Below, piece after piece: positions 29,674 to 58,291 of a stretch of 64,000 nucleotides of DNA (positions within the stretch are counted from its first letter, which is position 1; every line of letters starts with the position of its first letter). A model generated the notes under the pieces. That model did not search any database. It was given only the letters and a program-made list of their open reading frames with translations, and was not told where the DNA came from. The stretch comes from a virus. Lineage: Duplodnaviria; Caudoviricetes. Location: the IMG/VR virus record IMGVR_UViG_3300020465_000014, positions 1,450-65,449 of that record; one strand, 5' to 3'. Made by a program: the position numbers and the translations under genes.

Positions 29674-29674
29674 T

Positions 29675-36601: not shown

Positions 36602-39600
36602 TCATCACCTCCTGATGTGAAGATTCCAACCGCCGAACTAATCAGCAAAGCCACACCTACTGCAGAAGCAAATGTTTGAATCACAATGTATGCGGGGAAC
36701 TCCCACATAACGTCCATGAATACATCATCGTCTGCACCAAACACTTCAACAAGTGTTTCAGGCAGAGCAAGGAGAATTAGCACAAGTCCGCTAAGAGCAT
36801 ATCGAATTGCCCTGTCGCCCATGTTGCTTCCTGAGTTAGCCCAAATCCAAAGTCCCGCAGTCATAACCAGGAGACCAGCAGTTCCGATTCCTTGCGCCCA
36901 ATCGTCTGAAAGGTCGCCAGTTCCAAGAGAGCCGTATTGTGCGGCTACCCATGCGTGAAGCATACCTACGCCAAAGAGAATCATGCCGACTCGCATATCC
37001 ATCCAGGAGTTAATCGGTGAACCCATCGACCACATATAGATCGCCAGGATAATTAGGAGTAGTGCAATACCAATGATTAGCAAATCTCCCCATGAAAGGT
37101 CTTCGAAGATTCCGTCATCATCATCTGTTGAAGTGTCTGAACCTCCTCCTGTTTCGTATTGTGCGTCTGCAGAAGCGTCAAAGTCAAACTCGTAAACAAC
37201 TGTTGTAGTAGTCACGTTCTCTTGTGAGATTCCCACGTCAAAGGATTCGTAAGTGAAAGTGCATTTTGCTCGGTATGAGTCGCCATTGACGAAAACTCCT
37301 GTGTAAGATACAGCGTTGTTGTCTCCTGTGTTTGTAACTGAGTTGTCGACTGGATTCAATCCTTGATCTCCGCCCCAATTACCAGTAGTAGTTCCTGAAC
37401 CCCACTTGCTGTCGTTGTTAACGTCTGTTCCGTATGGCATCCAACCGTTGTAGCTACCTGAAGCACCAGTTTGTGCTACGATTCCGCTACCGTTGACTCC
37501 GCCTCCCAAACGGTCATCGAAGTTTGTCTTCGAGAAGATTTCAATTTTAGCGGACTTCATTCCACCGTTGATTGCGGCAAGACCGCATTCGATTGTGGAG
37601 AATGGGTCGTTAGCACCTGCAACATACATTACAGGGATTCTTGCTGTTTGCTCGCCCTGGACACCCATGTATGGTGCGCCAAATTGAGAACCATTTACCC
37701 CTGCGATTGGGTTGCTTGTTGGGTTAGTTCCATAATAGAACATAGAGTAAGCAGATGCAAATGCAGGGTTTGTTTGGTTTGTGGAGTTTGTGCTACGAGT
37801 TACCATTGAAGAAGATGCGAGAGGATCTCTTGCATTATCGTGAGACAATCGGATGCTGACTGCACCTTCGCTTGACTCGCCTGTGTTTACTCCGAAGCCC
37901 TTGTTTACAGCACCAGAGTTCCAATCGCTTGATTCGGTGAAGGCAACAATCATAGTAAACTCAAACATTTGGTTTTCCACGTTGTAATATCCAGCATTGT
38001 AAGAGTCGAGCAAACTAACCCTGGTTAGATCTTCCAAGATGTTTCCTGTGGTTAGTTCGATTTCGCTTGACTTGACTCCGTTTTGACCCATACAGTAGTC
38101 AGCGTTTGCAGAGCCGAGTTGTGTAGAGCCAGCAAGGTATGCGTTTGCTGGAGTAGTGACTGTGTATTTGTCGCCCTTCAAAGCATAGGTAATCAGGCTA
38201 TTCTTTGTCTGATAGTTTCCTACTGCAGAGTTTGGCATAATGTATGTCTTGACTTCACCGTTGAAACAGTATTCCATTCCGTTTCCATGAGAGAAAATAA
38301 GGGTTGATAGATCGTAGCCTCCCCAATTCGACTGAGAATAAATTGCGTCAATTGGAATCTTTACGTCCAAAATCATTCCGTCAACTCCATCTGATGTTTT
38401 ACCATCGAAGGCAAGGGTTGAACGGCACTTTGCTAAGAACCAACCTGAGTCACACCAGGAAGAACCGCCATCGTTGATTTGTCCAATCTTGATTCCTGGT
38501 TCTGAATCATCTCCGAATGTAATCGAAGGGTCGTAAATGATACAAGGTGAAGCATCAGTAGTGTGGCATGAAGCCTGGTCTTCGGATTTCAAACCGAATG
38601 TGATTGAGATAACAACTCCGTCTCCAGAGGCAGGTGAAGTTGCGAGCATACGAATGCTTGTGTTGTAAACTTCACTTGTGTTGGAGTAGTTGTATGCTTG
38701 AGGAAGCGTCATGCTAATTGTATGCTGTTTACAATTTGCATCCTTACAAGTAGCTGTAACGATTTGGTTTGCATCAACCAAATAACCGTCTCCGATTGTC
38801 TTCGAGATACCATCAACTGCAATAGTTACATTGTGAGGAATGTATAGATCGTAGCCAAAGTATTCTGCTTGAGTTGATTGGTTGCTTGTGATAGCAAAAC
38901 CAACGGTGTTTGTCTTCATTGGAACAGACATTCCAGGCATCATCATCAGCATTTCTGTGCTTGCGGCGTTTTCGATTCCGCCGTCTCCGTTTAGAGAACA
39001 GCCAACTGCGTTTGCGAATTGTCCAGCAACAACAACGTCACAATTAGCAAGTTTTGCATTCTTTGCGTTGGTAGTTACTACACTACCTGAAGAACGAGCA
39101 TTGTCCGCATACCAGGTCTTAGGAGTAATGGTAACAGAAGTGTCTGCTTCCCATGTAGCCGAATCTGGTGTTGGTGCGTTGTCTTTGAATCCGATTACGA
39201 ATGTGCTTGCATCGTCAACAGCGTTGCCCAAATAATCTGTTCCGACATCTGCTTGCACGTCCATGTTTCCATCTTTTAATGCCGCACCATTTGCAGTATA
39301 TTCCCATCCTTCCTGGTCGCCATCAACTGCTGGTTCTGTTTGATAACCGCCGTTGAAGTCAGGTGTCGGTTGTCCAGAAATTAGGTCATAGAAATTAGCG
39401 CCATCATCAACATAACCGTTCTGTAAAAAGACGGATTCCTTTGAATTAGTCGATTGACTATCATACTGTTGGCTTACCGCTACAGTATCATGTTCAGGTT
39501 CAGATGGGTTGCGATCTATTCCATTCGTGGACGTAGCATCAGGCACACCTGCAACTGCTGGTGCGGCGAGTAATGATACAACCATAATCATAGTCAGCAA

Positions 39601-39648
39601 AAGTGCTGAATTTTTTGTCTTGCTATTTGCGAGGCTTGAGGGCTTCAT
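36598..39648 (-). CDS. Large surface/spike-like protein: signal peptide, Cys-rich ectodomain, 5-TM anchor
   Basis: Signal ending ...APAVA; many NxS/T sequons; CFNG block shared with 31016-35590. Confidence 0.85.
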   Translation of the reverse strand: MKPSSLANSKTKNSALLLTMIMVVSLLAAPAVAGVPDATSTNGIDRNPSEPEHDTVAVSQQYDSQSTNSKESVFLQNGYVDDGANFYDLISGQPTPDFNGGYQTEPAVDGDQEGWEYTANGAALKDGNMDVQADVGTDYLGNAVDDASTFVIGFKDNAPTPDSATWEADTSVTITPKTWYADNARSSGSVVTTNAKNAKLANCDVVVAGQFANAVGCSLNGDGGIENAASTEMLMMMPGMSVPMKTNTVGFAITSNQSTQAEYFGYDLYIPHNVTIAVDGISKTIGDGYLVDANQIVTATCKDANCKQHTISMTLPQAYNYSNTSEVYNTSIRMLATSPASGDGVVISITFGLKSEDQASCHTTDASPCIIYDPSITFGDDSEPGIKIGQINDGGSSWCDSGWFLAKCRSTLAFDGKTSDGVDGMILDVKIPIDAIYSQSNWGGYDLSTLIFSHGNGMEYCFNGEVKTYIMPNSAVGNYQTKNSLITYALKGDKYTVTTPANAYLAGSTQLGSANADYCMGQNGVKSSEIELTTGNILEDLTRVSLLDSYNAGYYNVENQMFEFTMIVAFTESSDWNSGAVNKGFGVNTGESSEGAVSIRLSHDNARDPLASSSMVTRSTNSTNQTNPAFASAYSMFYYGTNPTSNPIAGVNGSQFGAPYMGVQGEQTARIPVMYVAGANDPFSTIECGLAAINGGMKSAKIEIFSKTNFDDRLGGGVNGSGIVAQTGASGSYNGWMPYGTDVNNDSKWGSGTTTGNWGGDQGLNPVDNSVTNTGDNNAVSYTGVFVNGDSYRAKCTFTYESFDVGISQENVTTTTVVYEFDFDASADAQYETGGGSDTSTDDDDGIFEDLSWGDLLIIGIALLLIILAIYMWSMGSPINSWMDMRVGMILFGVGMLHAWVAAQYGSLGTGDLSDDWAQGIGTAGLLVMTAGLWIWANSGSNMGDRAIRYALSGLVLILLALPETLVEVFGADDDVFMDVMWEFPAYIVIQTFASAVGVALLISSAVGIFTSGGDE

Positions 39649-39672
39649 ATTACAAGTTGGATTTGCACACCG

Positions 39673-41556: not shown

Positions 41557-42816
41557 ATGGGAAGGAAACCACAAATCGGAATGAAAAAAACAGGAAGGCC
41601 AGTCACACTATACTTGAATGGAGAAACAGCACATCTCTATGACCTGGCTAAATTGAATCCAAATATTACAGTCAGCCACCTTCTGAATCAAGCATTACAG
41701 GCGGCATTGGGTGACGCTTCTGAAAGGCATCCGATGGAAGTTATGGTTGAGGATCTCAAAGCGGACTTAGATGAAATCGAAAAGCAAAGAGAAGTCATAA
41801 AACAAAGATTGGAAGTTGCTCAAGACCGACTACCTGAAGAATTAGCACGTTCAGAATGGCTGAAAAATATACTCGGCAAAGACGGTGAAATCCGTTTGAT
41901 GAATCTTAGGACATGGCTATTCTTCGATGCGAGGCATACTGCACGTTCCTTCATTCCACCTAAGAACGGCAGAGAGGCTTTAGAAGAATACAAGCAACTC
42001 CTTTCAAAGTATGAATCGACCAAACGTGGGCCAACTGTTGACGGCAATTTTGAGATTGGCGACAATCTGCATCCTGAAGGTAAAGAAGGATTTTGTTGCG
42101 AGGAAAATTGCATCGGGGAACACAACGGCAGAATCTCTGACGATTTGAAGTTCCGTTGTGTATTACATCATCGAGAAAGGTTTGCGAAGCATTGGCAAAA
42201 TGGAGTAAACAAACTCAAACCACATTGGATTGAAGAATCTCTTACCCATGAACAGATCGTCTTAATCCAGGCGGCTACGAAAGGTGGATTCAAACTGCAG
42301 AAAGGAATGGGCTATCTGGTTCAAGAGGAAAACGCATTACAGTCATTGAGAACCTCTTTGATTATCGAGAGGGCGACTAAATCTTGGGAAATTCAAAACC
42401 CTGGAAAGAACGAACAGCTCTCTCATCTTATTGAAACCAAAGACAAGGTTTGCGAAAGAGATTCGAATGCCAATCCTACAAAGACATGGGAGGGCTTGCC
42501 AGGTGCTTCAAACACAAGGCTAAGAACCCAAATGATACAATCAATGAATCAAGAAGAGAGAGATGCCTACAAAGCGAAGTCAGACCTTTACATGGAATTG
42601 ATACGTAATCGTGGAGAATCAATCAGAACCAAAGTTGAGGCGTGGAGAACCGCAGGTCAACCCTGGCCTTATGTCGAATTAGAAGATTGGTGCGATTCAC
42701 TACTTGAAGCCAAACCTCCATCTAATCAAATGGAAAGATACCCCTATTCTCTGCCATTAAATGCTTGTAAATCAAGAATTGAATTGGACATTTCAATCAT
42801 TGATTCTACGGCTTGA
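41557..42816 (+). CDS. Hypothetical protein with N-terminal RHH-like domain, coiled coil and Cys/His cluster
   Basis: PVTLYL...VSHLLNQALQ; CCEENC...CVLH. Confidence 0.75.
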   Translation: MGRKPQIGMKKTGRPVTLYLNGETAHLYDLAKLNPNITVSHLLNQALQAALGDASERHPMEVMVEDLKADLDEIEKQREVIKQRLEVAQDRLPEELARSEWLKNILGKDGEIRLMNLRTWLFFDARHTARSFIPPKNGREALEEYKQLLSKYESTKRGPTVDGNFEIGDNLHPEGKEGFCCEENCIGEHNGRISDDLKFRCVLHHRERFAKHWQNGVNKLKPHWIEESLTHEQIVLIQAATKGGFKLQKGMGYLVQEENALQSLRTSLIIERATKSWEIQNPGKNEQLSHLIETKDKVCERDSNANPTKTWEGLPGASNTRLRTQMIQSMNQEERDAYKAKSDLYMELIRNRGESIRTKVEAWRTAGQPWPYVELEDWCDSLLEAKPPSNQMERYPYSLPLNACKSRIELDISIIDSTA

Positions 42817-43024: not shown

Positions 43025-43486
43025 ATGGAAAGCCCAAACAAAATACCAATGGATATTTTGGTTGCTGACGCATTGGCGGTTGGATATGAAGTAATTGTCT
43101 TGATTTTAGACGATGATGAAGATGCCTATTGGTGTGCTAATTCACAAACTTACATTCCAAAAAACATTGACCCGAATCATGGTTATGATTTGGACTTCAT
43201 AGCTCTAATGGAAGAAGAGATGCGATTAGATGATGAGGCTTGGCAGAAAGCAATGGAAAAAGAGCATGGAGGAAAAATAACTCCAGAATGTGAAATAGAT
43301 CTCGAAGAACACAATAGAAAAGTTCTCGAAGAATCTCCAGAACATGATACCTGGTATGACCCTTCAAAACCATTTGATGTAGTCGATGCCGACTCTGCTT
43401 GTTATTGCGGTTGGCTTGGCATAGATTCGCCACCAAAAGAATTTGCACCTCCTGGATGCGATTGCTACGTGGAGGGTTCTGAGTAA
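43025..43486 (+). CDS. Acidic hypothetical protein with C-terminal Cys motifs
   Basis: ORF track; TTCAAAGG box upstream. Confidence 0.7.
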   Translation: MESPNKIPMDILVADALAVGYEVIVLILDDDEDAYWCANSQTYIPKNIDPNHGYDLDFIALMEEEMRLDDEAWQKAMEKEHGGKITPECEIDLEEHNRKVLEESPEHDTWYDPSKPFDVVDADSACYCGWLGIDSPPKEFAPPGCDCYVEGSE

Positions 43487-43896
43487 TGGGTTCAATTTCT
43501 GATATGGTGGGATATACTCCTACTGGTGCTGTAATAGCAATTTGTATTACAATTTCAATCATAGCGGCGGCTACCTGGAGGAATGCCAAAGGCGAAGGTT
43601 GGGATTTAGTCGTATTCCTGGGTGCTTTGGTTTTAGGATTCAATCTATCAATCACATTTGCGTCTTGGACATTAGAATCATTGGCCGCAGTTTTTGGTAG
43701 CATGGGTAGTTGGATAGGAGATGCGGCATCAATTGATACTGAGTTAGGATCTATCACCTTGATATTGGGTCTGGTTGTTGTGACCTATTTAATGACGAAA
43801 ATAGAGTTCGACCTGGTTAGGATTGCGGCACTTGGAACACTATTCGGGATTATCTTACGTTTGCTAACTGATTTCCTTTGGTTCTGGTTCGCATAG
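43486..43896 (+). CDS. Small 4-TM membrane protein (candidate matrix/envelope protein)
   Basis: Hydrophobic helices; TAATG coupling. Confidence 0.75.
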   Translation: MGSISDMVGYTPTGAVIAICITISIIAAATWRNAKGEGWDLVVFLGALVLGFNLSITFASWTLESLAAVFGSMGSWIGDAASIDTELGSITLILGLVVVTYLMTKIEFDLVRIAALGTLFGIILRLLTDFLWFWFA

Positions 43897-43906
43897 GTGA
43901 TTACAA

Positions 43907-44848
43907 ATGAGATTGAAACTTACCATAATATTGACGATTTTTATTTTACAGCTAATACCAACGGTTTCTGCTCAAAACATTGAAGCCGTTGAATTACGCT
44001 TAGACACTTCAATTCAATACCCAAACGACAGAGATATTGGAATTGTTGTCGAAGCAATGGGATTTGCAGATAACAAACCTTCTCGAAGCAAAATTGACGT
44101 TCAAGCAGAATTACGTTGGCCTAACGGAACTTCAGCACAAACGATCTCAACAACAGTCGACCCAGGAATAAGGACTTCAATAATTTTCGACAAGCAAGAT
44201 GTCGTAGGGACATACTTCGTATTCGCTACTGCTTCAATTGATAACGTAGTTTCAAATCCAGAAAGTCAGAGAACCAGGGTAACTTACGCACCACAAGAAT
44301 ATACTGCAGGTTTCCTCGATAGTGGCAGATTCTTAGTCACACCACTTGGGCCAGCAAGCGACCAAATAACAGTTCAAGAATATCTTGATTCAGGAACAGG
44401 AATCACAGAAGGTAGGCAATGGGTCATTTCTGGTAACGAATCCTTAGACATAGAAGTTCCAAAAGGCTACATGGCAATTCGATATAACGTAGTGGATGAA
44501 AACGGATGGATGAACTATGAAAGAGCTAACTCTGGATTAACTGTTCATGGAACGCCTTACGTTTGGTTGTATGGCGATCTAACCAGAATTGAGCCAGTAT
44601 CTTCATTCGTTGCTACGGGAAGTATTGTCTTTGGTATTGTAGGAGGCTGTATGGTGCTTGCTGGAGTATCGAGATATGTCGGACTATTCATTGACGAAAG
44701 AGCAAAAAGGCGGAAAGAACTTGGTCTCGATAAAGCGCCATCATGGAGGGAACGTAGTCGTCAAAAACAATACCGTAAGGAAATAGACAGACAATACGAA
44801 ATGGATAGGCGAAGGCGAATGGAAATGGACAGATATAGGAGATGGTAA
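43907..44848 (+). CDS. Type I membrane protein: signal peptide, beta-rich ectodomain, TM, basic tail
   Basis: ...PTVSA cleavage site; TM; R/K-rich C-terminus. Confidence 0.8.
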   Translation: MRLKLTIILTIFILQLIPTVSAQNIEAVELRLDTSIQYPNDRDIGIVVEAMGFADNKPSRSKIDVQAELRWPNGTSAQTISTTVDPGIRTSIIFDKQDVVGTYFVFATASIDNVVSNPESQRTRVTYAPQEYTAGFLDSGRFLVTPLGPASDQITVQEYLDSGTGITEGRQWVISGNESLDIEVPKGYMAIRYNVVDENGWMNYERANSGLTVHGTPYVWLYGDLTRIEPVSSFVATGSIVFGIVGGCMVLAGVSRYVGLFIDERAKRRKELGLDKAPSWRERSRQKQYRKEIDRQYEMDRRRRMEMDRYRRW

Positions 44849-45555
44849 TTATGCAACCAGGAGAATTTGACGATTTAATTTTTGACGATCCTATGCTTAT
44901 GCAACAGTTAGGTCTCGGCCCTGCATTTCAACAACAACCAGAACCTCAACCGACTTCAGATAGAGACCCGCCGCCTCAGCAAACCTGGAGTATCGGGTTG
45001 ATTCTAACTGGCTGTTTAATGATGCTAACATGGGTCGCAGTTCCTATCGGTGGATTAGGTGCGTGGTTTTACGGCCCAATAGAAGGCTTCTTCGCTGAAC
45101 CTGTTTATTCAAGGTTCGAATCTTTCATGTGCGGCGGAATGTTCGTCACAATTGGAATATCAATTGCATTCTTCATTCATACGGGCATTCCTAAAGTCCA
45201 TTGGGTTGAAAATGACCCTGGAGTTCCGAGAACCACATTTCTGAAAAAAATCGAAGATACGGGAGGAAATCTCATCTTGACTCGAAGGGACAGAAAAAAA
45301 ATACGAGTCCGTAAGGACATTTGCTCAAAGTATCGTAAGACGGTTCACGTTTGCGCCCACGTTTTAGAAATCGATGCAAGACCTGGTAGCAATTGGGACA
45401 TCGAGTTCAGGACAACTCAAGGCAGTATGTCGAGAGGGCAAATTGAATCTGAAGAAGATTTGGCAATGCGTCAAGGATTCCGAGAGCAACAACTCGAAGA
45501 GATCAGTCAGCAATACGTTCAAGGTCAAATGGAACAGATTGAAGGAGTTGGTTGA
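44842..45555 (+). CDS. 2-TM membrane protein
   Basis: Two hydrophobic segments followed by a soluble C-terminal domain. Confidence 0.75.
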   Translation: MVIMQPGEFDDLIFDDPMLMQQLGLGPAFQQQPEPQPTSDRDPPPQQTWSIGLILTGCLMMLTWVAVPIGGLGAWFYGPIEGFFAEPVYSRFESFMCGGMFVTIGISIAFFIHTGIPKVHWVENDPGVPRTTFLKKIEDTGGNLILTRRDRKKIRVRKDICSKYRKTVHVCAHVLEIDARPGSNWDIEFRTTQGSMSRGQIESEEDLAMRQGFREQQLEEISQQYVQGQMEQIEGVG

Positions 45556-45935
45556 AGATGTCTTTTGATTCAGAATACAAACCGCCACTACAACCTCCTG
45601 ATTGGGTATTTGGGCCAGTATGGACATTTCTCTATGCCACTTTAGCAATTAGCATATTTTGGACTTGGAGAGATCGAGCAGAAATTGAAAACTCAAACCT
45701 TCTGATAGGTGCTTTTGCATTACAAATGCTTCTCAATTTGACTTGGACTTACGCTTTTAATTCAGAAAGATACGTCTTATCAACGCTTATGCTCTTTGGA
45801 ATGGTAGCTCTAACCAGTTATTACGCATACGGACTTTATTCGTTTAACCAACTTGCTTCAGTTATTGTTTGGCCTTACATTGCATGGGTAACATTTGCCA
45901 GCATTCTCAACATCTTCTATCTGGTGGAGGCTTGA
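45552..45935 (+). CDS. tspO: TspO/MBR family protein lacking TM1
   Basis: KPPLQPPDWVFGPVWTFLY, QMLLNLTW, PYIAWVTFASILN. Confidence 0.85.
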   Translation: MKMSFDSEYKPPLQPPDWVFGPVWTFLYATLAISIFWTWRDRAEIENSNLLIGAFALQMLLNLTWTYAFNSERYVLSTLMLFGMVALTSYYAYGLYSFNQLASVIVWPYIAWVTFASILNIFYLVEA

Positions 45936-45937
45936 AT

Positions 45938-46840
45938 ATGGCAAATGATAATTACAATCCAAAAATCGTGCCAGGGCATTTTACAATGCTAATGATGGAA
46001 ATTGGCTATCATCGGACAAGCGGCAGTCCAACCAAACCAGAGGATTCAATAGAATACAAACGTGCCAAAAGAGACGTTAACAAAGCAATGAGAACTTCAA
46101 AAAAATATGGCGAAGCAAGAAGGAAATTACTCGCTGAAGGTTATGAATGGAAAGAACCAGAGAGGCGAAGGAAAAACCGAAAAAGAGTAAATCTTAGCAA
46201 CAGGACTTCACTTTGGCCTTCTTCAAAGGCACTACGTAAAAGCGGAATCAAAATGATTTGGAATCCTGTTACACATAGATACATTCAGAATACTGCGAGA
46301 AATCGCCGTTCAATTCTCAAACAGATCTATGATGAGGAAACAAACTCTCTCGTTTTGGTATCTTGTAGCAAAAACAAGGTTTGGGATTTAGACATGGAAA
46401 ATCCGAGACGTGCATTACAAGGAACTGCTATACCTGCAGAGAGGGCTTACTGCTCTCCTCTATTCGAGAAGTCAAAGGATTGGGCGAATCGAAGGAAGAT
46501 GGATTGGAGAGTAATTTCAGCAAAGCATGGAATTGTAAAACCAGGAGAACGAATATCCGAATACGATGTGACGTTAAGCGACCTAAACAGAAAGCAAAAG
46601 GAATCCTGGGCGGATATGACCGCAGACGAGTTGTTGAAGGAAATCGACAAGAAGGATTACGACAGAGTAATTTTTCTAACTGGCCGAGCATATATGCCGA
46701 AGCGTTTAATCAACAAATTGCCTAAATCTATCGAAGTCAAAACTCCACTTGAAGGAAAACAAATCGGAGAACGCTTACAATGGTTCAACGAAGATAATGA
46801 AGGATTCAGGAAAACAAAGTTTAGTGGGTGGGGTCGATGA
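45938..46840 (+). CDS. Basic N-terminal region plus DUF6884-like domain
   Basis: LVSCSKNK...PAERAYCSPLF...VISAKHG...YDVTL...GxxIGERLQW. Confidence 0.7.
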   Translation: MANDNYNPKIVPGHFTMLMMEIGYHRTSGSPTKPEDSIEYKRAKRDVNKAMRTSKKYGEARRKLLAEGYEWKEPERRRKNRKRVNLSNRTSLWPSSKALRKSGIKMIWNPVTHRYIQNTARNRRSILKQIYDEETNSLVLVSCSKNKVWDLDMENPRRALQGTAIPAERAYCSPLFEKSKDWANRRKMDWRVISAKHGIVKPGERISEYDVTLSDLNRKQKESWADMTADELLKEIDKKDYDRVIFLTGRAYMPKRLINKLPKSIEVKTPLEGKQIGERLQWFNEDNEGFRKTKFSGWGR

Positions 46841-47769
46841 GCAACCCACCTATACCCAATAACAGGCCACGTTCAGGCAGAGACCTGTTTATGATTCCTC
46901 AAAACGACAGGCTCAACGATCAGTTCAGATTCATTGATACAATGGTTCTCTCAATGACGGATTCCTGGGCGTATTTACCGCCGAGAGCAAAACACATTCT
47001 TTGGTTAAAACTATCAGCATCAGACCCAAACTTGTTAGAAAAAAGCGGTATGCCAATAGAAAACGGAATGCTACTTCATTGGTCTATGTGGCCTGATGAT
47101 TTAGGAGATTACGCACAAGCAATTGCTCTAAGAATGAGTTATGTTCAATTAGAGAACCTCGAACCCAAAAACGTAGCAATGGCCTCTGCATTGAAACAGG
47201 CTCAAAAAGCAGAAGATACGGCAAGGTTACAAATCCAACTTGCTCAACATTTGATTCAATTACAGCAGATGGGTGCAGACACAAAAGAGCTTGCGAAACT
47301 ATTTGCTAAAAATGCCAACGAAAGAGAATCGCTTGAGACAGTTCTCGAAGCGGCTGAAAACCAAATGCTTCAAAGAATGCAATCTGCAGAGAGGGAAAGA
47401 GAATCTTTCAGAAACCCTCCCCCCGCACCCCCCTCCGAATATCCATTCGATGAAGAAGAAGAAGGAGAAATACCAGTAGCGCCATTGAGAGGAATTGACT
47501 TCCCTGCAGATGAAGGAATGCCTTTCGATGAAGAAGATCTCGAAGGAGATTTCCGAGAATATTTGGGTGCATCGATACCTGCAGATGAAGAAGAAGATTA
47601 CGAAATCTATGATGAGGAAATAATCGAAGCAGAATTAGTCGATGGACAAGATATTGATTCCATGATAGAAGACGCAACAAACAACGTCATAATGTCTGAA
47701 GAAGAGATGCAAGCCTTCGCTGATGCAGAATATGATGAAGAAGGAGACCAGGTGGAGGATGATTCCTGA
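46837..47769 (+). CDS. Coiled-coil protein with very acidic C-terminus
   Basis: ORF track; coupled to the ATPase gene. Confidence 0.8.
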   Translation: MSNPPIPNNRPRSGRDLFMIPQNDRLNDQFRFIDTMVLSMTDSWAYLPPRAKHILWLKLSASDPNLLEKSGMPIENGMLLHWSMWPDDLGDYAQAIALRMSYVQLENLEPKNVAMASALKQAQKAEDTARLQIQLAQHLIQLQQMGADTKELAKLFAKNANERESLETVLEAAENQMLQRMQSAERERESFRNPPPAPPSEYPFDEEEEGEIPVAPLRGIDFPADEGMPFDEEDLEGDFREYLGASIPADEEEDYEIYDEEIIEAELVDGQDIDSMIEDATNNVIMSEEEMQAFADAEYDEEGDQVEDDS

Positions 47770-49148
47770 TGAGAGGAAGATACACCAACTGGAAAGATTT
47801 TGGAAGGGTAGCAATCGACAAAGGAATGCCTCCCGCAATCATGGGTCAATTAAGACGTATTTACACAACATATTGCGAAGGTGGATGCGATCTAACAACA
47901 TTGAAATGGTTTTTCACAAAATATGCGCCCTGGTCGAGAATCATAACTGTTCGAAAAGACAGCCTACTCGATGAAGACGTTGATACTGCAGATGGAAGGA
48001 AAAAAACGCCACCTTTGATTTTGTATGAATCCAATTTGTTAGAGCAAGGTTTCATTTGTGAATGGAAGCCCGACATATTATTTGCATACGGAGATCGTGG
48101 ACAAGGGAAATCGGTTTTTAGTTATGGGATGGCCGAAAGATGGCTTGAAGAAGCGAGAACCTGGAGACGTGCAGAAAACAATGGTTCACCGAGAGTTTAC
48201 GTTTATGGAGATGTTAACGGCCTCGTCCCATCTGAACCAGGATGGTTTCGATGTCCAGATTGGTTTGTTGTAGATCGCCAGCAAGAGGATTTCCCACTTC
48301 TCGAAGTTTATGATGAAGTTCCACTTGCACTTCGAAGTGGCGCAGTATCAAAGGCATCAAAGCAATGGGCTGAAAAACTGACCCGTTCAAGACATTGTGC
48401 AGTTTGGACAATAATGAACATGGTTCAAGCAAAGATGGCCGTTAAACGAGGAAGAGAAATGGATGCGCTGACTCTTGATAGATTTTCAGGGCTAAGGCAA
48501 TTAAGAGAGAGAATCGAAGACATACCAGTTCAGACATTCAAAGACGCATACAGAAAACTCGTTCCAGAAATACGAAGGAAAGACCCTGGAATATCAATGA
48601 CTCAATTGAATGAAGACCAGGGAGAAGTAGGAACATGGCTTACGTTGTATCAAACCAAACCCCCTTCATGGCTTGAATGGCGAGAACATGAGAGAAAAGA
48701 AGGCAATCTATCAACCACAGCCGCACCCTGGCCTCCAGAATGCGTTTTAGAACGTGCAAGGCATTATGCTAAAGAGACCTTCGACTTGATAATGAAAGAT
48801 TGCGAGAAGGATAATGAGGATAAAATAGAGGAATGGAGAGATATGTTGGGAATAACTCCAACAGCCGATAAGCAAGCACAGGTGCTTGACCGCCTCGTTA
48901 GACACATTTGCAGAGGCGCTGGCATGGAATGGGCGGCAATTGGAGAAGTAATCGATGGCGAGAAAGGTGCGGCTAAGGAAAAAATGGGCGGTGGAGGCAA
49001 TTTGCAGAGATGGGGACATCGAAACAAGTTCGAAGATACATCAGAGATGATTCAGATTGCGGCGGCGAATCTCAAACAAGAATTGCCATACCGCAACAAA
49101 TCGCCCGTATGTTGGGGGTTGAGCCTTCACTTGGCTGAACATATTTAG
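47769..49148 (+). CDS. FtsK/HerA-superfamily (Zot/A32-like) ATPase, candidate packaging/extrusion motor
   Basis: Walker A GDRGQGKS; Walker B LEVYDE; SRH arginine-finger motif followed by a strand ending in Q. Confidence 0.7.
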   Translation: MRGRYTNWKDFGRVAIDKGMPPAIMGQLRRIYTTYCEGGCDLTTLKWFFTKYAPWSRIITVRKDSLLDEDVDTADGRKKTPPLILYESNLLEQGFICEWKPDILFAYGDRGQGKSVFSYGMAERWLEEARTWRRAENNGSPRVYVYGDVNGLVPSEPGWFRCPDWFVVDRQQEDFPLLEVYDEVPLALRSGAVSKASKQWAEKLTRSRHCAVWTIMNMVQAKMAVKRGREMDALTLDRFSGLRQLRERIEDIPVQTFKDAYRKLVPEIRRKDPGISMTQLNEDQGEVGTWLTLYQTKPPSWLEWREHERKEGNLSTTAAPWPPECVLERARHYAKETFDLIMKDCEKDNEDKIEEWRDMLGITPTADKQAQVLDRLVRHICRGAGMEWAAIGEVIDGEKGAAKEKMGGGGNLQRWGHRNKFEDTSEMIQIAAANLKQELPYRNKSPVCWGLSLHLAEHI

Positions 49149-49515
49149 AAAAAAAATTGTAGTTTGGTGATATTGTGATTTCTCATGCAGTTGTTATAGT
49201 CATTACATACGTGCGAGATGAACGGTTCGACAAGACATTACAGAAATATATCAGTTCAAAAATTACTGATAGTAACACAATATCAGCAGAAAATAATGAG
49301 AATATACCTGGAGATAAGGAGAATATATCTCAGTATTCTATTCCTGTTAAGCTACAATCAAAAAACAAATTAGATCAGCACTTGCTGATGAGAAATAATC
49401 ATCTTGAACAGCTAATCAATTCAAACAAACAAAAAAACAATCATCAGACAATCAGCACCGATGGACTGAAACGATGTGCCGATCAAATGATAATCTAAGC
49501 CAGGAGGAATAAGCA

Positions 49516-49899
49516 ATGAAATCTAAATCAAACAATTTAGCATCGAAAGAACTCGACAGAATAACAAGAGGAATGAAACATTATCGAGGAATCATAATCG
49601 GTGCTTGGGGAATGGCTGGATTATACACTTGTCTGGTATGGGGAATATTCGATGTATCATCTAAGATTGGTGAGAAAGTAGGAGAGCCTGAAGCATTCCC
49701 TCTTGCTTGGGACTTGGCAATCATACTTTCTAATGTGCTTGTAATCATGGTAGCCTGGGCGATAACAAAACTGACGCTACAAATGATACCCAGGAAATTC
49801 AGGAAAAAGGAACAGCAGAAAAAAAGTGTATGGGATAAACAACCAGGGCCTCCAGCAACAATACCTGAGAATGTGCGAGTTGCCTTCAAAAGTGAGTAG
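49516..49899 (+). CDS. 2-TM membrane protein
   Basis: GGAGG SD; two hydrophobic segments. Confidence 0.7.
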   Translation: MKSKSNNLASKELDRITRGMKHYRGIIIGAWGMAGLYTCLVWGIFDVSSKIGEKVGEPEAFPLAWDLAIILSNVLVIMVAWAITKLTLQMIPRKFRKKEQQKKSVWDKQPGPPATIPENVRVAFKSE

Positions 49900-49901
49900 C
49901 T
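49890..49901 (+). promoter_or_regulatory. Degenerate upstream box AAGTGAGTAGCT (9/12), ending 51 bp before ATG 49952
   Basis: Same spacing as other copies; TTAATTAG TATA-like element downstream. Confidence 0.45.
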
Positions 49902-49951
49902 TTGTTTCATCCTTACATCATCGTTAATTAGATCCTCGCTTTGTTAGGCTC

Positions 49952-51028
49952 ATGGTGGAAAAACCGAAGAAGTTGCTAACCACTTCTAATCCAAAAACAA
50001 TGAAGGGTCAGAAGAAGGGATATGAGACATACATTTTACATCTCGCACCTTCCAATCTTTCAGGCACAAACACTTGTCCTTCTGCATCGAAAGGTTGCGC
50101 TACCGCTTGCCTAAATGAAGCGGGAATGGGTTGTTTTGATTCAGTTCAAAATGCCAGGATTACCAGGACAAAATATTTCTTCGAGAAAAGAGATGCCTTT
50201 ATGGAAATGCTGGACAAGGAAATCAAATCAGCAATTGCTACTGCAGAAAGGAAAGGTCTTACCCCTGCCTTCAGATTAAATGGCACATCAGATATTCGTT
50301 GGGAAGAAGTCAGATATGGAGACGATAACAAAACTGTATTCGAGTATTTCCCACAGATCCAATTTTATGATTATACCAAAATACCCAATCGAGGGAGGAA
50401 AAAAGGATTACCTGATAATTACACAATTGTATTTTCACGTTCAGAAGATAATGATAGATTCGTGAACCAGGCAATGAGGAAAGGGCAAAACGTAGCAGTT
50501 GTCTTCGGAGACCCGCCAGGATTGCCTGATGTCTGGAGAGGATGGAGGGTCTTAGACGGAGATGAAACAGATTTGAGATTCCTTGACCCGCCTCAAAGAG
50601 TAGTAGGTCTGAAAGCAAAAGGAACTAAGGGCAAAAACGACACAACAGGTTTCGTAGTTTACGGAGAAGGAATGATTGATATTGATGCCCTGAAAAGAAG
50701 GTCGAAAAAAGATTTCAAAAGTGCAAGAGGAGATCGTAGCATCGGGCCTCGAAAAATCGACAATGAATCTTTCATACCAGTTCAAAGCAAGGTATCGAAG
50801 CAAATGGCAGAGAGAACCGCCAATATTATTCGAGGCACAGGGAGAAAAGCAAGAGTAGTTACCCACAAGCCTAAGATTGGTGGAAAAACAGTCGAAGCCT
50901 ATGCTGTTTATGTTCCTGGAGTTTACAAAAGGAATACAAGCGGTGCAATCAACGGTCTTCGAATTAGAGCGCCTAATCGAGTCGATTATCTCAGGCAACG
51001 TAGATCGCTTACAAAATCTCATCAGTAA
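49952..51028 (+). CDS. GP88 family protein with C-terminal basic tag
   Basis: TCPSASKGCATACL, RLNGTSD, QFYDYTK, DGDETDLRFLD, GLKAKG; RKIDNESF...AERTANIIRGTGRKARVV...YAVYVP. Confidence 0.85.
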   Translation: MVEKPKKLLTTSNPKTMKGQKKGYETYILHLAPSNLSGTNTCPSASKGCATACLNEAGMGCFDSVQNARITRTKYFFEKRDAFMEMLDKEIKSAIATAERKGLTPAFRLNGTSDIRWEEVRYGDDNKTVFEYFPQIQFYDYTKIPNRGRKKGLPDNYTIVFSRSEDNDRFVNQAMRKGQNVAVVFGDPPGLPDVWRGWRVLDGDETDLRFLDPPQRVVGLKAKGTKGKNDTTGFVVYGEGMIDIDALKRRSKKDFKSARGDRSIGPRKIDNESFIPVQSKVSKQMAERTANIIRGTGRKARVVTHKPKIGGKTVEAYAVYVPGVYKRNTSGAINGLRIRAPNRVDYLRQRRSLTKSHQ

Positions 51029-56781: not shown

Positions 56782-56963
56782 ATTTGCATCGGTAGCGTCT
56801 CCCGCCTATAACCTTTGGTATTGTTTAGCTTTCTTTACGCAAAATCTCCAATTTGCCTTGCGTCATGCGAAAAGAGCAAAATTATCTGACGTTAAAGAAT
56901 CAATTATCAAATCGGCAGGTAGCAAACGAAGCGTTTATGGTCTCGGTTCGTTTGGGTTGCACT
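56782..56963. promoter_or_regulatory. Divergent archaeal promoter region
   Basis: GTTATAGG (- strand) and TTTATGG (+ strand), each ~25-30 bp from an ATG; no AAGTGTGCATCT box seen. Confidence 0.55.
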
Positions 56964-57749: not shown

Positions 57750-57893
57750 ATGGATAGATTCGCATTGCCAAAAGAAGGCCGAATCAGAAAGCGAGATGAT
57801 GAAATGTGCTGTGGCTTCCTTTGGGGTCAATTCATGGATGCCAACATCGATGAATTAGTCAACTTCTGTCCTTCATGTGGTGAAGCAGTATGA
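57750..57893 (+). CDS. Small Zn-ribbon protein, 47 aa (absent from ORF track)
   Basis: MDRFALPKEG...CCG...FCPSCGEAV; stop overlaps next ATG. Confidence 0.6.
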   Translation: MDRFALPKEGRIRKRDDEMCCGFLWGQFMDANIDELVNFCPSCGEAV

Positions 57894-58291
57894 GTATAGA
57901 TCGCAGATACAAAGTCGATAGAGACATGATTGCCAGTATGAGGGAAATGCGCCTCCTGGGTAATTCATATCAAAAGATTGCTGACGAGCATGGAGTATCT
58001 TACTACACCGCCTATTATTGGATAAATGATGAAGCGAGGGCGGCAAAACGTGCAAAGAATGCAAAGAGAAGATACTCTCCAGGCGACAAAGCAAGAGTTC
58101 AACGAGACATGGCAAAGCGCAGAGAAAATTGGAATGCAAATCCAGATTCTAAATTGAGACATACAATTCAATCCGCTAAAGGAGAAAAAAGAGCCAAGAG
58201 AAAAACGGTGAAAGGAATGAGTATGGCAGATGCAGAAAAATTGCTACGCTCAGGCAAACTCGATATTCCAAATAACAAGATGGGTGAGTAA
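57890..58291 (+). CDS. Helix-turn-helix protein
   Basis: GNSYQKIADEHGVSYYTAYYW. Confidence 0.75.
   Translation: MSIDRRYKVDRDMIASMREMRLLGNSYQKIADEHGVSYYTAYYWINDEARAAKRAKNAKRRYSPGDKARVQRDMAKRRENWNANPDSKLRHTIQSAKGEKRAKRKTVKGMSMADAEKLLRSGKLDIPNNKMGE

What the first reader, a model, noticed from the sequence alone, without database searches (positions are those of the whole stretch)
43486..49148. Membrane-protein plus Zot/A32-like ATPase block points to a large non-tailed virus of a Thermoplasmatota host
Seen: a 4-TM protein, a type I membrane protein with basic tail, a 2-TM protein, an acidic coiled-coil protein, then an ATPase with GDRGQGKS, EVYDE and SRH...Q. No terminase, portal, HK97 capsid or tail genes are recognisable in 64 kb. 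Known: the RH...Q signature marks FtsK/HerA ATPases of the Zot/A32 type; pleolipoviruses carry a membrane-protein plus NTPase block but have far smaller genomes; the MGII viruses I know of are tailed. Inference: a possibly new lineage of large enveloped archaeal viruses or vesicle-packaged elements.
Basis: partly seen in the sequence, partly recalled or inferred. Interest (0 to 1): 0.7.

Follow-up and report, generated by a model that had tools for sequence, protein, structure and literature searches.

The report
Membrane-linked DNA-pump module, novel marine virus
A complete 65-kb marine virus-like genome, probably of Marine Group II archaea, keeps a conserved operon of small membrane proteins plus a new DNA-pump ATPase and shows no head-tail genes, so it may be an undescribed kind of membrane-containing archaeal virus.

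Summary
Observation confirmed; interpretation partly supported. The window is almost all of one 65,449-bp contig with a 77-bp terminal repeat, so the element is complete. Genes 43025-51028 form one tightly coupled plus-strand operon: acidic Cys-rich protein, 4-TM protein, type-I membrane protein with basic tail, 2-TM protein, TspO, DUF6884, acidic helical protein, ATPase, 2-TM protein, GP88. The ATPase belongs to a rare new family: 14 hits among 1.84 billion representatives. Its model matches FtsK/HerA ATPases, best the STIV2 packaging ATPase B204 (Z 14.0), tied with HerA. It is the only large Walker-A protein in the genome. No terminase-large, portal, capsid, tail or conjugation family was hit (Pfam 50 proteins, PHROGs 40). 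The one exception is a weak small-terminase-like HTH. The operon is the best-conserved part of relatives of 59-71 kb. Host evidence for Poseidoniales is moderate. Whether the particle is enveloped, icosahedral with an inner membrane, or a transfer vesicle is untested. The scan met this module before on other DNA (e1-5358574, e1-6212589, e1-6258895).

The parts
43025..43486 (+). 153-aa acidic (pI 4.05) protein with a Cys-rich C-terminus; first gene of the conserved block
   Evidence: ORF; pI; no Pfam/PHROG hit; present upstream of the 4-TM gene in 9 of 11 related loci. The other two loci start downstream of it.
43486..43896 (+). 136-aa protein with about 4 TM segments; candidate particle or assembly-site membrane protein
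   Evidence: 47-58% identical in G001/G002; no BLASTP similarity to HRPV-1 VP3 (E 0.10).
43907..44848 (+). 313-aa type-I membrane protein: signal-like N-terminus, beta-rich ectodomain, one TM, 51-aa basic tail; candidate surface or spike protein
   Evidence: The Atlas nearest cluster is a CARDB-domain archaeal surface protein (score 0.87, 197 shared features, a lead only). 46-55% identical in G001/G002. No BLASTP similarity to HRPV-1 VP4 (E 9).
44842..45555 (+). 237-aa 2-TM protein with a soluble C-terminal domain
   Evidence: 61-68% identical in G001/G002; no Pfam/PHROG hit.
45552..45935 (+).
   Evidence: Pfam PF03073 E 7.5e-26. Inside the block in 10 of 11 loci; the 11th starts downstream. 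40-49% identical to chromosomal TspO of 50 of 201 Poseidoniales genomes, whose frames are of similar short length.
45869..46840 (+). The listed TTG start overlaps TspO; an ATG at 45938, 3 nt after the TspO stop, is the likelier start.
   Evidence: Pfam PF21818 E 1.4e-29; phrog_5935 E 1e-9. Absent from the block in 3 of 11 loci, and elsewhere in G001. The start is inferred from the translation.
46828..47769 (+). 313-aa acidic protein: conserved N-terminal about 190 aa (small helical domain plus long helices) and a disordered D/E-rich tail. Its stop overlaps the ATPase start by 1 nt.
   Evidence: The N-terminal 170-175 aa are 73% identical in G001/G002, the highest value in the genome. AF2 pLDDT is 59.4, with residues 40-110 at 70-87. 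No significant fold match: Foldseek 0 hits at E<=1e-3, VIA best Z 5.5. Atlas lead to small-terminase clusters at 0.87-0.88. Directly upstream of the ATPase in 11 of 11 loci.
47769..49148 (+). 459-aa FtsK/HerA-superfamily ATPase of a new rare family: N-terminal 3-helix domain, ASCE core (about 85-310), C-terminal helical HTH/Myb-like region
   Evidence: It is the only large ORF with a Walker A motif in the genome.
48090..48113 (+). Walker A, GDRGQGKS (residues 108-115)
   Evidence: G108, G113 and K114 invariant in 9 of 9.
48303..48317 (+). Walker B, EVYDE (residues 179-183)
   Evidence: E183 invariant in 9 of 9.
48387..48428 (+). SRH ... MNMVQ (residues 207-220): invariant R208-H209 (candidate arginine finger) and a sensor-like N/Q
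   Evidence: same pattern NRH..(9)..Q in STIV B164/B204. The role of the residues is inferred.
49516..49899 (+). 127-aa basic 2-TM protein downstream of the ATPase
   Evidence: found in 3 of 11 loci; not scanned against Pfam or PHROGs.
49952..51028 (+). GP88-family protein with a C-terminal SPOR-like basic tag (residues about 259-326)
   Evidence: Pfam PF17338 E 1.6e-47; phrog_1617 E 7.9e-72; tag HMM E 3.6e-20, though this copy was one of the seeds. Downstream of the ATPase in 10 of 11 loci; the 11th ends inside the ATPase.
57890..58291 (+). 133-aa HTH protein, possibly a DNA-recognition partner of the module
   Evidence: Pfam HTH_23 E 3.2e-4; phrog_4102 small terminase subunit E 0.0061; 65-66% identical in G001/G002. 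It lies immediately upstream of the acidic protein in 4 of 11 loci: L001, L034, L036, L038.

Best explanation
The block is the conserved core operon of an undescribed family of complete, 59-71-kb marine dsDNA virus-like elements, probably associated with Poseidoniales (MGII) archaea. It couples the genome's only large P-loop ATPase to four or five small membrane proteins (4-TM, type-I Ig-like with basic tail, 2-TM, TspO, 2-TM) and to one or two small helical or HTH proteins. The ATPase is a new FtsK/HerA family, closest in fold to the A32/B204 packaging ATPases. It has extra N- and C-terminal helical, probably DNA-binding, domains. Most likely the ATPase forms a ring that docks on a membrane through these partners and pumps the genome into a membrane-containing, non-tailed particle. 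The HTH domains and partner proteins would choose the DNA. Shown: the fold class, the conservation and gene order, the absence of recognisable head-tail genes, and the completeness of the genome. Inferred: ring formation, membrane docking, DNA translocation, the existence of a particle and its architecture.
For: Fold. AF2 model pLDDT 70.9, pTM 0.72. VIA-align: B204 Z 14.0 (rmsd 2.9, 177 of 200), HerA 13.8, FtsK 13.2, TcpA 12.6, EssC 12.4, VirB4 12.1; RecA-type chains at most 10.4. Foldseek PDB top hits are HerA 3e-4, B204 5e-4 and FtsK 1e-3. BFVD has 22 hits at E<=1e-3, led by NCLDV and virophage packaging ATPases. Motifs. Walker A, Walker B and R208-H209 are invariant in 9 of 9, and STIV B204 has the same RH...Q layout. 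Only motor candidate. Of 4 Walker-A-like strings in ORFs of 90 aa or more, one is this ATPase, one sits in a 177-aa protein and two lie in tag regions. Conservation. The block is collinear in 11 of 11 loci and is the best-conserved part of three complete genomes: ATPase 64%, acidic N-domain 73%, 2-TM 61-68%. The large minus-strand genes reach only 25-40% or give no hit. DNA-binding parts. The profile gives a weak Myb/HTH match at the C-terminus (E 0.004). One other family member carries HTH_7 (E 4.2e-5) and one HTH_23 (E 7.1e-4). The HTH133 gene sits next to the module in 4 of 11 loci. Complete element. 77-bp terminal repeat. G002 is DTR-classed and G001 is circularly permuted, both rated 100% by CheckV. 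Homologues of the acidic protein lie on contigs of up to 58.8-71.2 kb. Membrane-rich genome. 20 of 51 proteins have at least one hydrophobic segment. No head-tail or conjugation family in 50 (Pfam) or 40 (PHROGs) proteins. RNA-library contigs at 99% identity or more lie on parts of the block, and one (47506-47913) bridges the junction of the acidic gene and the ATPase.
Against: No capsid, spike or other particle protein was identified by homology, so a particle is inferred and not shown. All characterised viruses with A32/B204/P9-type ATPases that I know of (recalled) have jelly-roll capsids, and none was found here. hhalign of 51 proteins against STIV B345 and PRD1 P3 gave at best 2.1% probability in 102 comparisons, a test of low sensitivity. 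The B204 match is tied within 1 Z with HerA and FtsK, and close to the conjugation ATPases TcpA and VirB4, so packaging cannot be told from other DNA or substrate translocation by fold. The ATPase has no TM segment, and no contact with the membrane proteins was tested. A terminal repeat and a narrow size range also fit circular plasmids. No replication protein other than a ligase was recognised. RNA-library contigs can contain DNA, and contigs give neither strand nor level. The IMG/VR 'virus' label is automatic. One weak small-terminase-like hit exists (E 0.0061).
Confidence: 0.55

Rival explanations
1. Capsid-less enveloped (pleolipovirus-plan) virion. The 4-TM protein is the internal membrane protein, the type-I protein the spike, and the ATPase loads or condenses DNA into a budding vesicle.
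For: The gene order parallels HRPV-1 VP3 (132 aa, membrane), VP4 (signal peptide, spike), ORF5-7 and VP8 ATPase. The profile-profile match of the ATPase family to 8 pleolipovirus VP8s has probability 88-90%, E about 2e-6, over 103-108 columns from Walker A to the post-Walker-B motif. The His2 record notes HTH plus ATPase in its homologue. No capsid gene was found, and membrane proteins are the best-conserved genes. The basic tail of the type-I protein could face the DNA (inference).
Against: The genome is 65.4 kb, against 7-17 kb for pleolipoviruses (passage of PMC10919331). There is no BLASTP similarity to VP4 (E 9) or VP3 (E 0.10). The type-I protein looks CARDB/Ig-like, not like the V-shaped fusogen (lead only). 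The hhalign match covers only the generic P-loop core, and the controls were single sequences, so they are not comparable. No pleolipovirus appears by name in the BFVD top 50, where several rows are unnamed.
Confidence: 0.25
2. Icosahedral, internal-membrane virus of the PRD1/STIV kind (Varidnaviria-like). Its jelly-roll capsid protein is too diverged to be seen by sequence. The small membrane proteins would build the packaging vertex and the inner membrane.
For: The best structural match is B204 of STIV2, and BFVD hits are A32-type ATPases. In PRD1 the packaging ATPase P9 lies among genes annotated 'DNA packaging' (P20, P22) and the capsid gene. That P20 and P22 are membrane proteins is recalled.
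Against: No capsid hit in 50 Pfam or 40 PHROGs scans. hhalign against B345 and P3 reached at most 2.1%. Capsid proteins are usually among the best-conserved genes. Here the best-conserved soluble proteins are helical or enzymes, and the large proteins are poorly conserved and mostly carry the tag.
Confidence: 0.2
3. Not a virus: a plasmid-like element whose FtsK/TraB-like ATPase and membrane proteins move the DNA between cells, by a conjugation-like route or in vesicles, or segregate it.
For: TcpA (Z 12.6), VirB4 (12.1) and FtsK (13.2) are nearly as close as B204. DUF932 at 56853-57749 is a family I recall from conjugative elements (Pfam E 1.8e-5). No capsid was found. A repeat at the contig ends fits any circular molecule.
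Against: No relaxase, VirB/Trb or coupling-protein family in 50 Pfam scans. The ATPase lacks the N-terminal TM anchor of FtsK and VirD4-type proteins (the anchor is recalled). Phage-associated families are present: GP88/phrog_1617 E 7.9e-72 and phrog_5935. The element is found in only 1 of 401 Poseidoniales genomes, which is unlike a resident plasmid.
Confidence: 0.12
4. A tailed virus (Caudoviricetes, like the known MGII magroviruses) whose capsid, portal and terminase genes are too diverged to detect.
For: Weak small-terminase-like signals: phrog_4102 E 0.0061 for 57890-58291, and Atlas leads at 0.87-0.88 for the acidic protein. Published Poseidoniales viruses in my searches are tailed (abstracts). 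Many large proteins remain dark.
Against: The only large Walker-A protein has an FtsK/HerA fold and no nuclease-sized C-terminal domain. No Pfam or PHROG hit to large terminase, portal, HK97 capsid, tail tube, sheath or tape measure. tblastn of the ATPase against 50,697 phage records found no match.
Confidence: 0.05

Closest known systems
STIV/STIV2 B204, PRD1 P9 and poxvirus A32-type genome-packaging ATPases (FtsK/HerA superfamily)
   Same: ASCE core fold: B204 Z 14.0, rmsd 2.9, 177 of 200 residues. Walker A with a basic residue (GRKRSGKS against GDRGQGKS), hhhhDE Walker B and the RH...Q motif. Encoded next to small membrane-protein genes, as P9 is next to P20 and P22 in PRD1.
   Different: 459 aa against 204-227 aa, with added N-terminal 3-helix and C-terminal helical HTH-like domains. 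No detectable sequence relationship: hhalign 13-20% against single sequences; no Pfam, PHROG or PDB sequence hit. No jelly-roll capsid gene recognised beside it.
Pleolipoviridae morphogenetic module (VP3, VP4, ORF6/7, VP8 NTPase)
   Same: Same order of a small multi-TM protein, a type-I protein with signal peptide, further small membrane proteins, then a P-loop NTPase. Profile-profile match of the NTPases at 88-90% probability over the P-loop core. An archaeal host is likely.
   Different: The genome is 4-9 times larger (65.4 kb against 7-17 kb). No sequence similarity of the membrane proteins. The type-I protein is shorter (313 against 518 aa) and looks Ig/CARDB-like. TspO, DUF6884 and an acidic protein are inserted in the block.
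HerA, FtsK and conjugative coupling or secretion ATPases (TcpA, VirB4, EssC/EccC)
   Same: Fold scores within 1-2 Z of the best hit. FtsK also joins a motor to a sequence-reading DNA-binding domain (recalled).
   Different: No TM anchor. No Sir2, nuclease or NurA partner and no T4SS or T7SS genes recognised in the genome.
Magrovirales, Adrikavirales and Aoguangviridae (published viruses of Poseidoniales and marine archaea)
   Same: Marine, probably the same host order, and a comparable genome size class.
   Different: Those are classed as tailed viruses with an HK97-type capsid phylogeny (abstracts). Nothing of that kind was recognised here. In PMC11706807 the words rhodopsin, FtsK, TspO, tailless and non-tailed occur 0 times.

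Membership tests
FtsK/HerA superfamily of P-loop ATPases | Walker A and Walker B motifs in an ASCE core | tested here: met
   GDRGQGKS at 108-115 and EVYDE at 179-183; G108, G113, K114 and E183 invariant in 9 of 9.
FtsK/HerA superfamily of P-loop ATPases | Core fold superposes on solved members better than on other ASCE classes | tested here: met
   B204 Z 14.0, HerA 13.8, FtsK 13.2, TcpA 12.6, EssC 12.4 and VirB4 12.1, against RecA/Rad51-type chains at most 10.4. Only Foldseek's top 1000 chains were re-aligned.
FtsK/HerA superfamily of P-loop ATPases | Conserved arginine after Walker B (arginine finger) and a polar sensor residue on the next strand | tested here: met
   R208-H209 invariant in 9 of 9. 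The Q of MNMVQ is present in 3 of 9 only, and N217 in 6 of 9. The roles are inferred.
FtsK/HerA superfamily of P-loop ATPases | Hexameric ring that translocates DNA or another substrate | not tested
   No oligomer prediction or assay was run.
A32/B204/P9-type viral packaging ATPases | Closest structural relatives are packaging ATPases of membrane-containing viruses | tested here: inconclusive
   B204 ranks first (Z 14.0), but HerA (13.8) and FtsK (13.2) are tied within 1 Z. BFVD hits are mostly A32-type at E about 1e-4.
A32/B204/P9-type viral packaging ATPases | Detectable sequence or profile relationship to the family | tested here: inconclusive
   hhalign of A1 against single STIV B164 gave 19.6% and against PRD1 P9 13.2%. 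No Pfam, PHROG or PDB sequence hit.
A32/B204/P9-type viral packaging ATPases | Compact single-domain protein of about 200-260 aa (lengths and the chains) | tested here: not met
   459 aa with an N-terminal helical domain (8-52) and a C-terminal helical region (323-405).
A32/B204/P9-type viral packaging ATPases | Encoded together with a vertical jelly-roll major capsid protein | tested here: inconclusive
   No capsid family in 50 Pfam or 40 PHROGs scans. hhalign against B345 and P3 reached at most 2.1% in 102 comparisons. Sequence methods are weak for this fold, and the other proteins were not folded.
Zot family (PF05707) | Match to the Zot profile and a C-terminal membrane domain | tested here: not met
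   No Pfam Zot hit for any of the 9 family members at E<=1. No hydrophobic segment in the ATPase. The fold similarity to the Zot N-domain 2r2a is weak (Foldseek E 6.4e-3).
Pleolipoviridae | Genome of 7-17 kb (passage of PMC10919331) | tested here: not met
   65,449-bp contig with a 77-bp repeat, a unit of about 65,372 bp.
Pleolipoviridae | VP4-like spike with the family-specific V-shaped fold | tested here: inconclusive
   BLASTP against HRPV-1 VP4 gave E 9. The Atlas lead points to a CARDB/Ig-like protein. The fold of the window protein was not predicted here.
Pleolipoviridae | VP8-type NTPase | tested here: inconclusive
   hhalign of A1 against an alignment of 8 VP8 homologues gave 88-90% probability and E 1.4e-6 to 2.8e-6, but only over the P-loop core of 103-108 columns. 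tblastn against the phage collection found no match.
Caudoviricetes (including Magrovirales) | Large terminase (ATPase plus nuclease), portal and HK97-fold capsid protein | tested here: inconclusive
   No Pfam or PHROG hit in 50 and 40 proteins. The only large Walker-A ORF is FtsK/HerA-like. One weak small-terminase hit at E 0.0061. The dark proteins were not folded.
Conjugative or TraB-type DNA-transfer systems | Membrane-anchored coupling or translocase ATPase together with relaxase or T4SS genes | tested here: inconclusive
   The fold is compatible (TcpA Z 12.6, VirB4 12.1), but the ATPase has no TM and no relaxase or T4SS family was hit in 50 Pfam scans.

The most novel reading that the evidence does not exclude
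A capsid-less, enveloped archaeal virus with a 65-kb dsDNA genome, four to nine times larger than any pleolipovirus. Its genome would be pumped into a budding, rhodopsin- and TspO-bearing membrane vesicle by a membrane-docked FtsK/HerA ATPase. About 16 proteins carrying a shared SPOR-like basic tag would be loaded as cargo. This would be a new virion-building principle for large DNA genomes in one of the most abundant ocean archaea.
Probability: 0.2. Interest if true: 0.85.

Novelty: new variant of a known kind. Interest (0 to 1): 0.66.

Why it matters
The Poseidoniales (MGII) viruses described in the papers my searches returned are tailed, or are tiny 4-5-kb elements. This family of complete 59-71-kb genomes recurs in many marine metagenomes. 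It has no recognisable head-tail genes. Its most conserved part is a membrane-protein operon built around a new FtsK/HerA ATPase. If it forms particles, it extends membrane-based DNA packaging (A32/B204/P9 type, or the pleolipovirus plan) to a new archaeal lineage and genome size. It also offers a tractable motor (ATPase plus HTH partners plus membrane proteins) for studying how DNA is loaded through or into a lipid membrane. If it does not form particles, it is a new kind of large mobile element of marine archaea. Either way the 65-kb genome is almost entirely 'dark' and carries a heliorhodopsin and TspO, which are unusual auxiliary genes.

Tried and rejected
Sequence searches that gave nothing for the ATPase: Pfam, PHROGs, phmmer against PDB and tblastn against 50,697 phage records.

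P0003, P0009 and P0010 have no relative in IMG/VR. The metagenome scan returned only close relatives of 61-99% identity.

The acidic protein model found no fold match. Foldseek gave 0 hits at E<=1e-3 and VIA-wide a best Z of 5.5 (HNF-1A DNA-binding domain). MerR chains scored Z 4.2-4.4, all within noise. The small-terminase/MerR-like idea therefore stays a lead.

Complex prediction of the ATPase (1-410) with the acidic protein (10-200) gave no verdict (score 0.01). This is neither for nor against binding.

hhalign of 51 window proteins against the STIV B345 and PRD1 P3 capsid proteins reached at best 2.1%, a test of low sensitivity.

A eukaryotic host was considered and rejected. GGAGG- or GGTGA-type motifs lie 5-12 nt upstream of most starts (by eye, not counted), and the genes are tightly packed and overlapping.

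A heliorhodopsin of host origin was rejected for Poseidoniales: 1 of 201 genomes matched, and that match is the viral fragment itself.

The integrase reading of 4545-6740 (phrog_95, E 0.0036) was judged too weak.

In the RNA libraries some bins of the block have no contig. This is not evidence of silence.

Supplementary files of papers were not opened. Supplementary tables of PMC11706807 and of other Poseidoniales virome papers might list related contigs that I could not see. Literature searches that found no description of this lineage.

Full report
WHAT IS THERE.
- 43486-43896 encodes a 136-aa protein with about four hydrophobic segments.
- 43907-44848 encodes a 313-aa protein with a signal-like N-terminus, one C-terminal TM and a 51-aa tail of 20 K/R and 11 D/E.
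- 44842-45555 encodes a 237-aa protein with two TM segments.
- 46828-47769 encodes a 313-aa acidic protein (70 D/E, pI 4.08).
- 47769-49148 encodes a 459-aa ATPase with GDRGQGKS (108-115), EVYDE (179-183) and SRH (207-209).

One is a TspO/MBR protein (45552-45935, Pfam E 7.5e-26). The other is a DUF6884 protein (45869-46840, E 1.4e-29; probably starting at the ATG at 45938). The block also extends on both sides. Upstream lies a 153-aa acidic Cys-rich protein (43025-43486). Downstream lie a basic 2-TM protein (49516-49899) and a GP88-family protein (49952-51028, E 1.6e-47). Neighbouring genes overlap by 1-13 nt or are separated by a few bases, as in an operon.

THE GENOME AROUND IT. The window is bases 1450-65449 of a single 65,449-bp contig. 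The first and last 77 bases of the contig are identical. The element is therefore complete, either circular or terminally redundant. There is no unseen 'rest of the contig' beyond 1,449 bases.
- GC is about 0.42 throughout, and there is no tRNA.
- About 40 kb of the minus strand is filled with very large genes of up to 1,524 aa.
- Pfam was run on 50 of my 51 listed ORFs and PHROGs on 40.
- The hits were TspO, DUF6884, GP88, heliorhodopsin (22528-23625, E 2.5e-70), a TusA domain, DUF3860, DUF5754, a WGR-ligase-OB DNA ligase (61865-63988), DUF932 and an HTH_23 protein.
- No capsid, portal, large terminase, tail, polymerase, relaxase or T4SS family was hit.
- The only 'head and packaging' hit is weak: phrog_4102, small terminase subunit, E 0.0061, for the 133-aa HTH protein 57890-58291.
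- In ORFs of 90 aa or more there are four Walker-A-like strings. One is in the ATPase, one in a 177-aa protein and two in tag regions. The ATPase is thus the only plausible DNA motor.
- By a crude hydropathy scan, 20 of 51 proteins have at least one hydrophobic segment.

THE ATPase. It belongs to a rare family. There are 14 proteins at E<=1e-3 among 1.84 billion cluster representatives, and only 8 at E<=1e-10. An alignment with 8 near-full-length members keeps G108, G113, K114, G147, D148, E183, R208, H209, W213 and R229 invariant.

The AF2 model built on that alignment has pLDDT 70.9 and pTM 0.72. It shows an N-terminal three-helix domain, an alpha/beta core (about 85-310) and a helical C-terminal region. 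The last 55 residues are disordered.

Foldseek against the PDB puts SIR2/HerA (3e-4), STIV2 B204 (5e-4) and FtsK (1e-3) first, and the Zot N-domain at 6.4e-3. Against BFVD the list is led by NCLDV and virophage A32-type packaging ATPases at E about 1e-4.

VIA-align gives these scores:
- B204: Z 14.0 (rmsd 2.9, 177 of 200 residues)
- HerA: 13.8
- FtsK: 13.2
- TcpA: 12.6
- EssC: 12.4
- VirB4: 12.1
- RecA/Rad51-type proteins: at most 10.4

The FtsK/HerA assignment is therefore well supported. The narrower A32/B204 assignment is the best guess but is statistically tied. Within the new family, however, the Q is kept in only 3 of 9.

The family profile weakly matches Myb-type HTH repeats at the C-terminus (E 0.004). 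One distant member carries HTH_7 (E 4.2e-5) and one HTH_23 (E 7.1e-4). The motor thus seems to be joined to DNA-binding domains.

CONSERVATION. Relatives of 61-99% identity were found as follows:
- 7 loci in IMG/VR, on contigs of up to 63.4, 66.4 and 69.1 kb
- 11 loci in metagenome contigs
- 1 locus in the GTDB genome set

Two relatives were read whole. G002 (63,413 bp) is classed as DTR. G001 (66,372 bp) is circularly permuted, with its heliorhodopsin gene wrapping the ends. Both are rated 100% complete by CheckV.

Against these two, the block is the most conserved part of the genome:
- acidic protein N-domain 73%
- ATPase 64%
- 2-TM 61-68%
- GP88 53-61%
- type-I protein 46-55%
- 4-TM 47-58%
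- TspO 43-60%

Most large minus-strand genes reach only 25-40% or give no hit.

In 11 loci examined, the acidic gene directly precedes the ATPase in 11 of 11. The 4-TM, type-I and 2-TM trio lies upstream in 9 of 11; the other two contigs start further downstream. GP88 follows the ATPase in 10 of 11. Some of these loci are the same virus filed twice, so they are not all independent. Homologues of the acidic protein form 34 clusters, all at 56% identity or more. They sit on contigs of up to 58.8-71.2 kb, which is a narrow size class.

THE PARTNERS. The acidic protein's model has pLDDT 59.4. It shows a small helical domain with a beta-hairpin (residues about 40-110, pLDDT 70-87), long helices (116-195) and a disordered acidic tail. 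It has no significant fold match. Language-model features place it nearest to unnamed viral clusters, with small-terminase clusters at 0.87-0.88. One homologue was named 'MerR regulator' by its source. These are leads only.

The 133-aa HTH protein (57890-58291) is 65-66% conserved. In 4 of 11 loci it lies immediately upstream of the acidic gene. That is a neighbourhood hint that it works with the module.

The type-I protein is nearest to archaeal CARDB/MG2-type Ig-like surface proteins, commonest in Thermoplasmatota (0.87, 197 shared features).

HOST. GGAGG- and GGTGA-type motifs precede most starts, so the host is a prokaryote (by eye, not counted).

One relative (71% identity over residues 4-335) lies on a 5.6-kb contig of a MAG titled Candidatus Poseidoniaceae archaeon. 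The same MAG holds a second fragment, carrying the tag plus the heliorhodopsin N-terminus. That is the only one of 401 Poseidoniales genomes with the ATPase. This is co-binning of a free element, not a common provirus.

TspO is 40-49% identical over its full length to chromosomal TspO genes in 50 of 201 Poseidoniales genomes, whose frames are similarly short. The best bacterial plasmid TspO is 37% identical and the best phage one 33%. The heliorhodopsin has no Poseidoniales counterpart. I put the Poseidoniales host at about 0.6.

EXPRESSION. An RNA-Seq library from the sample that may be the source of this DNA contains contigs of 99% identity or more on parts of the region. They cover the giant surface-protein gene (38000-39654) and several pieces of the block (45825-46120, 46957-47268, 47506-47913, 48355-48692, 50063-50472). 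One of these bridges the junction between the acidic gene and the ATPase. Contigs give no strand or level, and DNA carry-over is possible. This is a hint of transcription only.

COMPARISON WITH KNOWN SYSTEMS. (i) A32/B204/P9 ATPases share the core and the motifs. The new protein is twice as long, has added domains and shows no profile-level relationship (13-20%). No jelly-roll capsid gene was seen (low sensitivity).

(ii) Pleolipoviruses. HRPV-1 has the order VP3 (132-aa membrane protein), VP4 (spike with signal peptide), ORF5-7 and VP8 ATPase. This matches the order found here. The ATPase family aligns with 8 VP8 homologues at 88-90% probability over 103-108 P-loop-core columns. However, pleolipovirus genomes are 7-17 kb and are defined by a V-shaped VP4 fusogen (passages of PMC10919331). 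The membrane proteins here show no similarity to VP4 or VP3. The element works to a similar plan but is not a member.

(iii) Conjugative and secretion ATPases are nearly as close in fold. The ATPase has no TM anchor, and no T4SS or relaxase gene was recognised.

(iv) The published Poseidoniales viruses that my searches returned are tailed (abstracts) or are 4-5-kb elements (passage in a bioRxiv preprint).

MECHANISM AND ODDS. My best reading (0.55) is a membrane-docked, ring-forming dsDNA pump. It would load the 65-kb genome into a membrane-containing, non-tailed particle. DNA choice would fall to the ATPase's own helical domains and to the acidic and HTH partners. The small membrane proteins would act as dock, conduit or particle membrane components.

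For the particle type I split the odds roughly as follows, as separate estimates rather than shares of the 0.55:
- capsid-less enveloped: 0.25
- inner-membrane icosahedral with an unseen jelly-roll capsid: 0.2
- plasmid-like transfer or segregation device: 0.12
- cryptic tailed virus: 0.05

Shown so far are the fold class, the motifs, the conservation, the synteny, the completeness and the absence of recognisable hallmark genes. Everything about assembly and function is inferred.

NOVELTY. Seven full-text searches found no paper describing this lineage. In PMC11706807 the words rhodopsin, FtsK, TspO, tailless and non-tailed occur 0 times. Supplements were closed and might list related contigs.

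The scan itself has met the same module on other DNA. A follow-up on another genome (e1-5358574) reached much the same reading, and there are two first-reader notes (e1-6212589, e1-6258895). I rate this as a new variant of a known kind: a new FtsK/HerA family in a new, probably archaeal, non-tailed element family.

Noticed in passing
window 443-63988 (e.g. 29488-29682, 2726-2917, 61871-62053, 50726-50929): A basic module of about 60 aa (R-x-[FI]-x-G ... K..A...A..hR..G-x-N-A-R-V ... G-h-Y-V-G) sits at the N- or C-terminus of many otherwise unrelated proteins, including the ligase, the heliorhodopsin, GP88 and most giant minus-strand proteins. An HMM built from 13 regex-picked seeds (2 of them false) hits 18 of 51 proteins at E<0.01, or about 16 without the false seeds. 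Pfam SPOR matches 3 of 14 copies, best E 5.7e-4. The PDB profile's best SPOR hit is CwlC 1x60 at E 0.72. None of the tagged proteins I looked at has a signal peptide, so the tag probably acts in the cytoplasm or the particle lumen.
   Followed up: partly
window 22528-23625 (-): A heliorhodopsin (Pfam E 2.5e-70) with a 110-aa N-terminal extension carrying the tag. It is conserved in both complete relatives at 44-62%. It was not found in 200 other Poseidoniales genomes.
   Followed up: partly
window 31016-35590, 36035-36601, 36598-39648 (-): Two giant proteins (1,524 and 1,016 aa) with a signal-like N-terminus and 3-5 C-terminal TM segments, with a 188-aa 5-TM protein between them. RNA-library contigs with the highest depth figures in the laid region lie on 38000-39654. 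They are candidate surface or adhesion proteins of the particle or of the infected cell.
   Followed up: partly
window 16349-17224 (-): A 291-aa protein with an HELTH (HExxH-like) motif in its conserved N-terminal 159 aa (54% identical in G002) and a His-rich, basic C-terminus with a weak tag hit. It is possibly a metallopeptidase. No Pfam hit.
   Followed up: no
window 55697-56230 (-): A 177-aa protein with an N-terminal Walker-A-like GQRQEGKS after a hydrophobic strand, and no Pfam or PHROG hit. It is the only other candidate P-loop protein in the genome.
   Followed up: no
window 41557-42816 (+): A 419-aa protein whose N-terminus looks like a ribbon-helix-helix DNA-binding motif followed by a coiled coil (by eye; no Pfam hit above noise). 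It lies just upstream of the block in relatives, and on the opposite strand in L003 and L034.
   Followed up: no
It is a candidate shared promoter box. It was not analysed further.
   Followed up: no
window 61865-63988 (-): An ATP-dependent DNA ligase with a WGR domain (E 5.7e-5), an OB domain (E 1.6e-19) and a C-terminal tag. It is the only recognisable DNA-metabolism enzyme in the genome.
   Followed up: no
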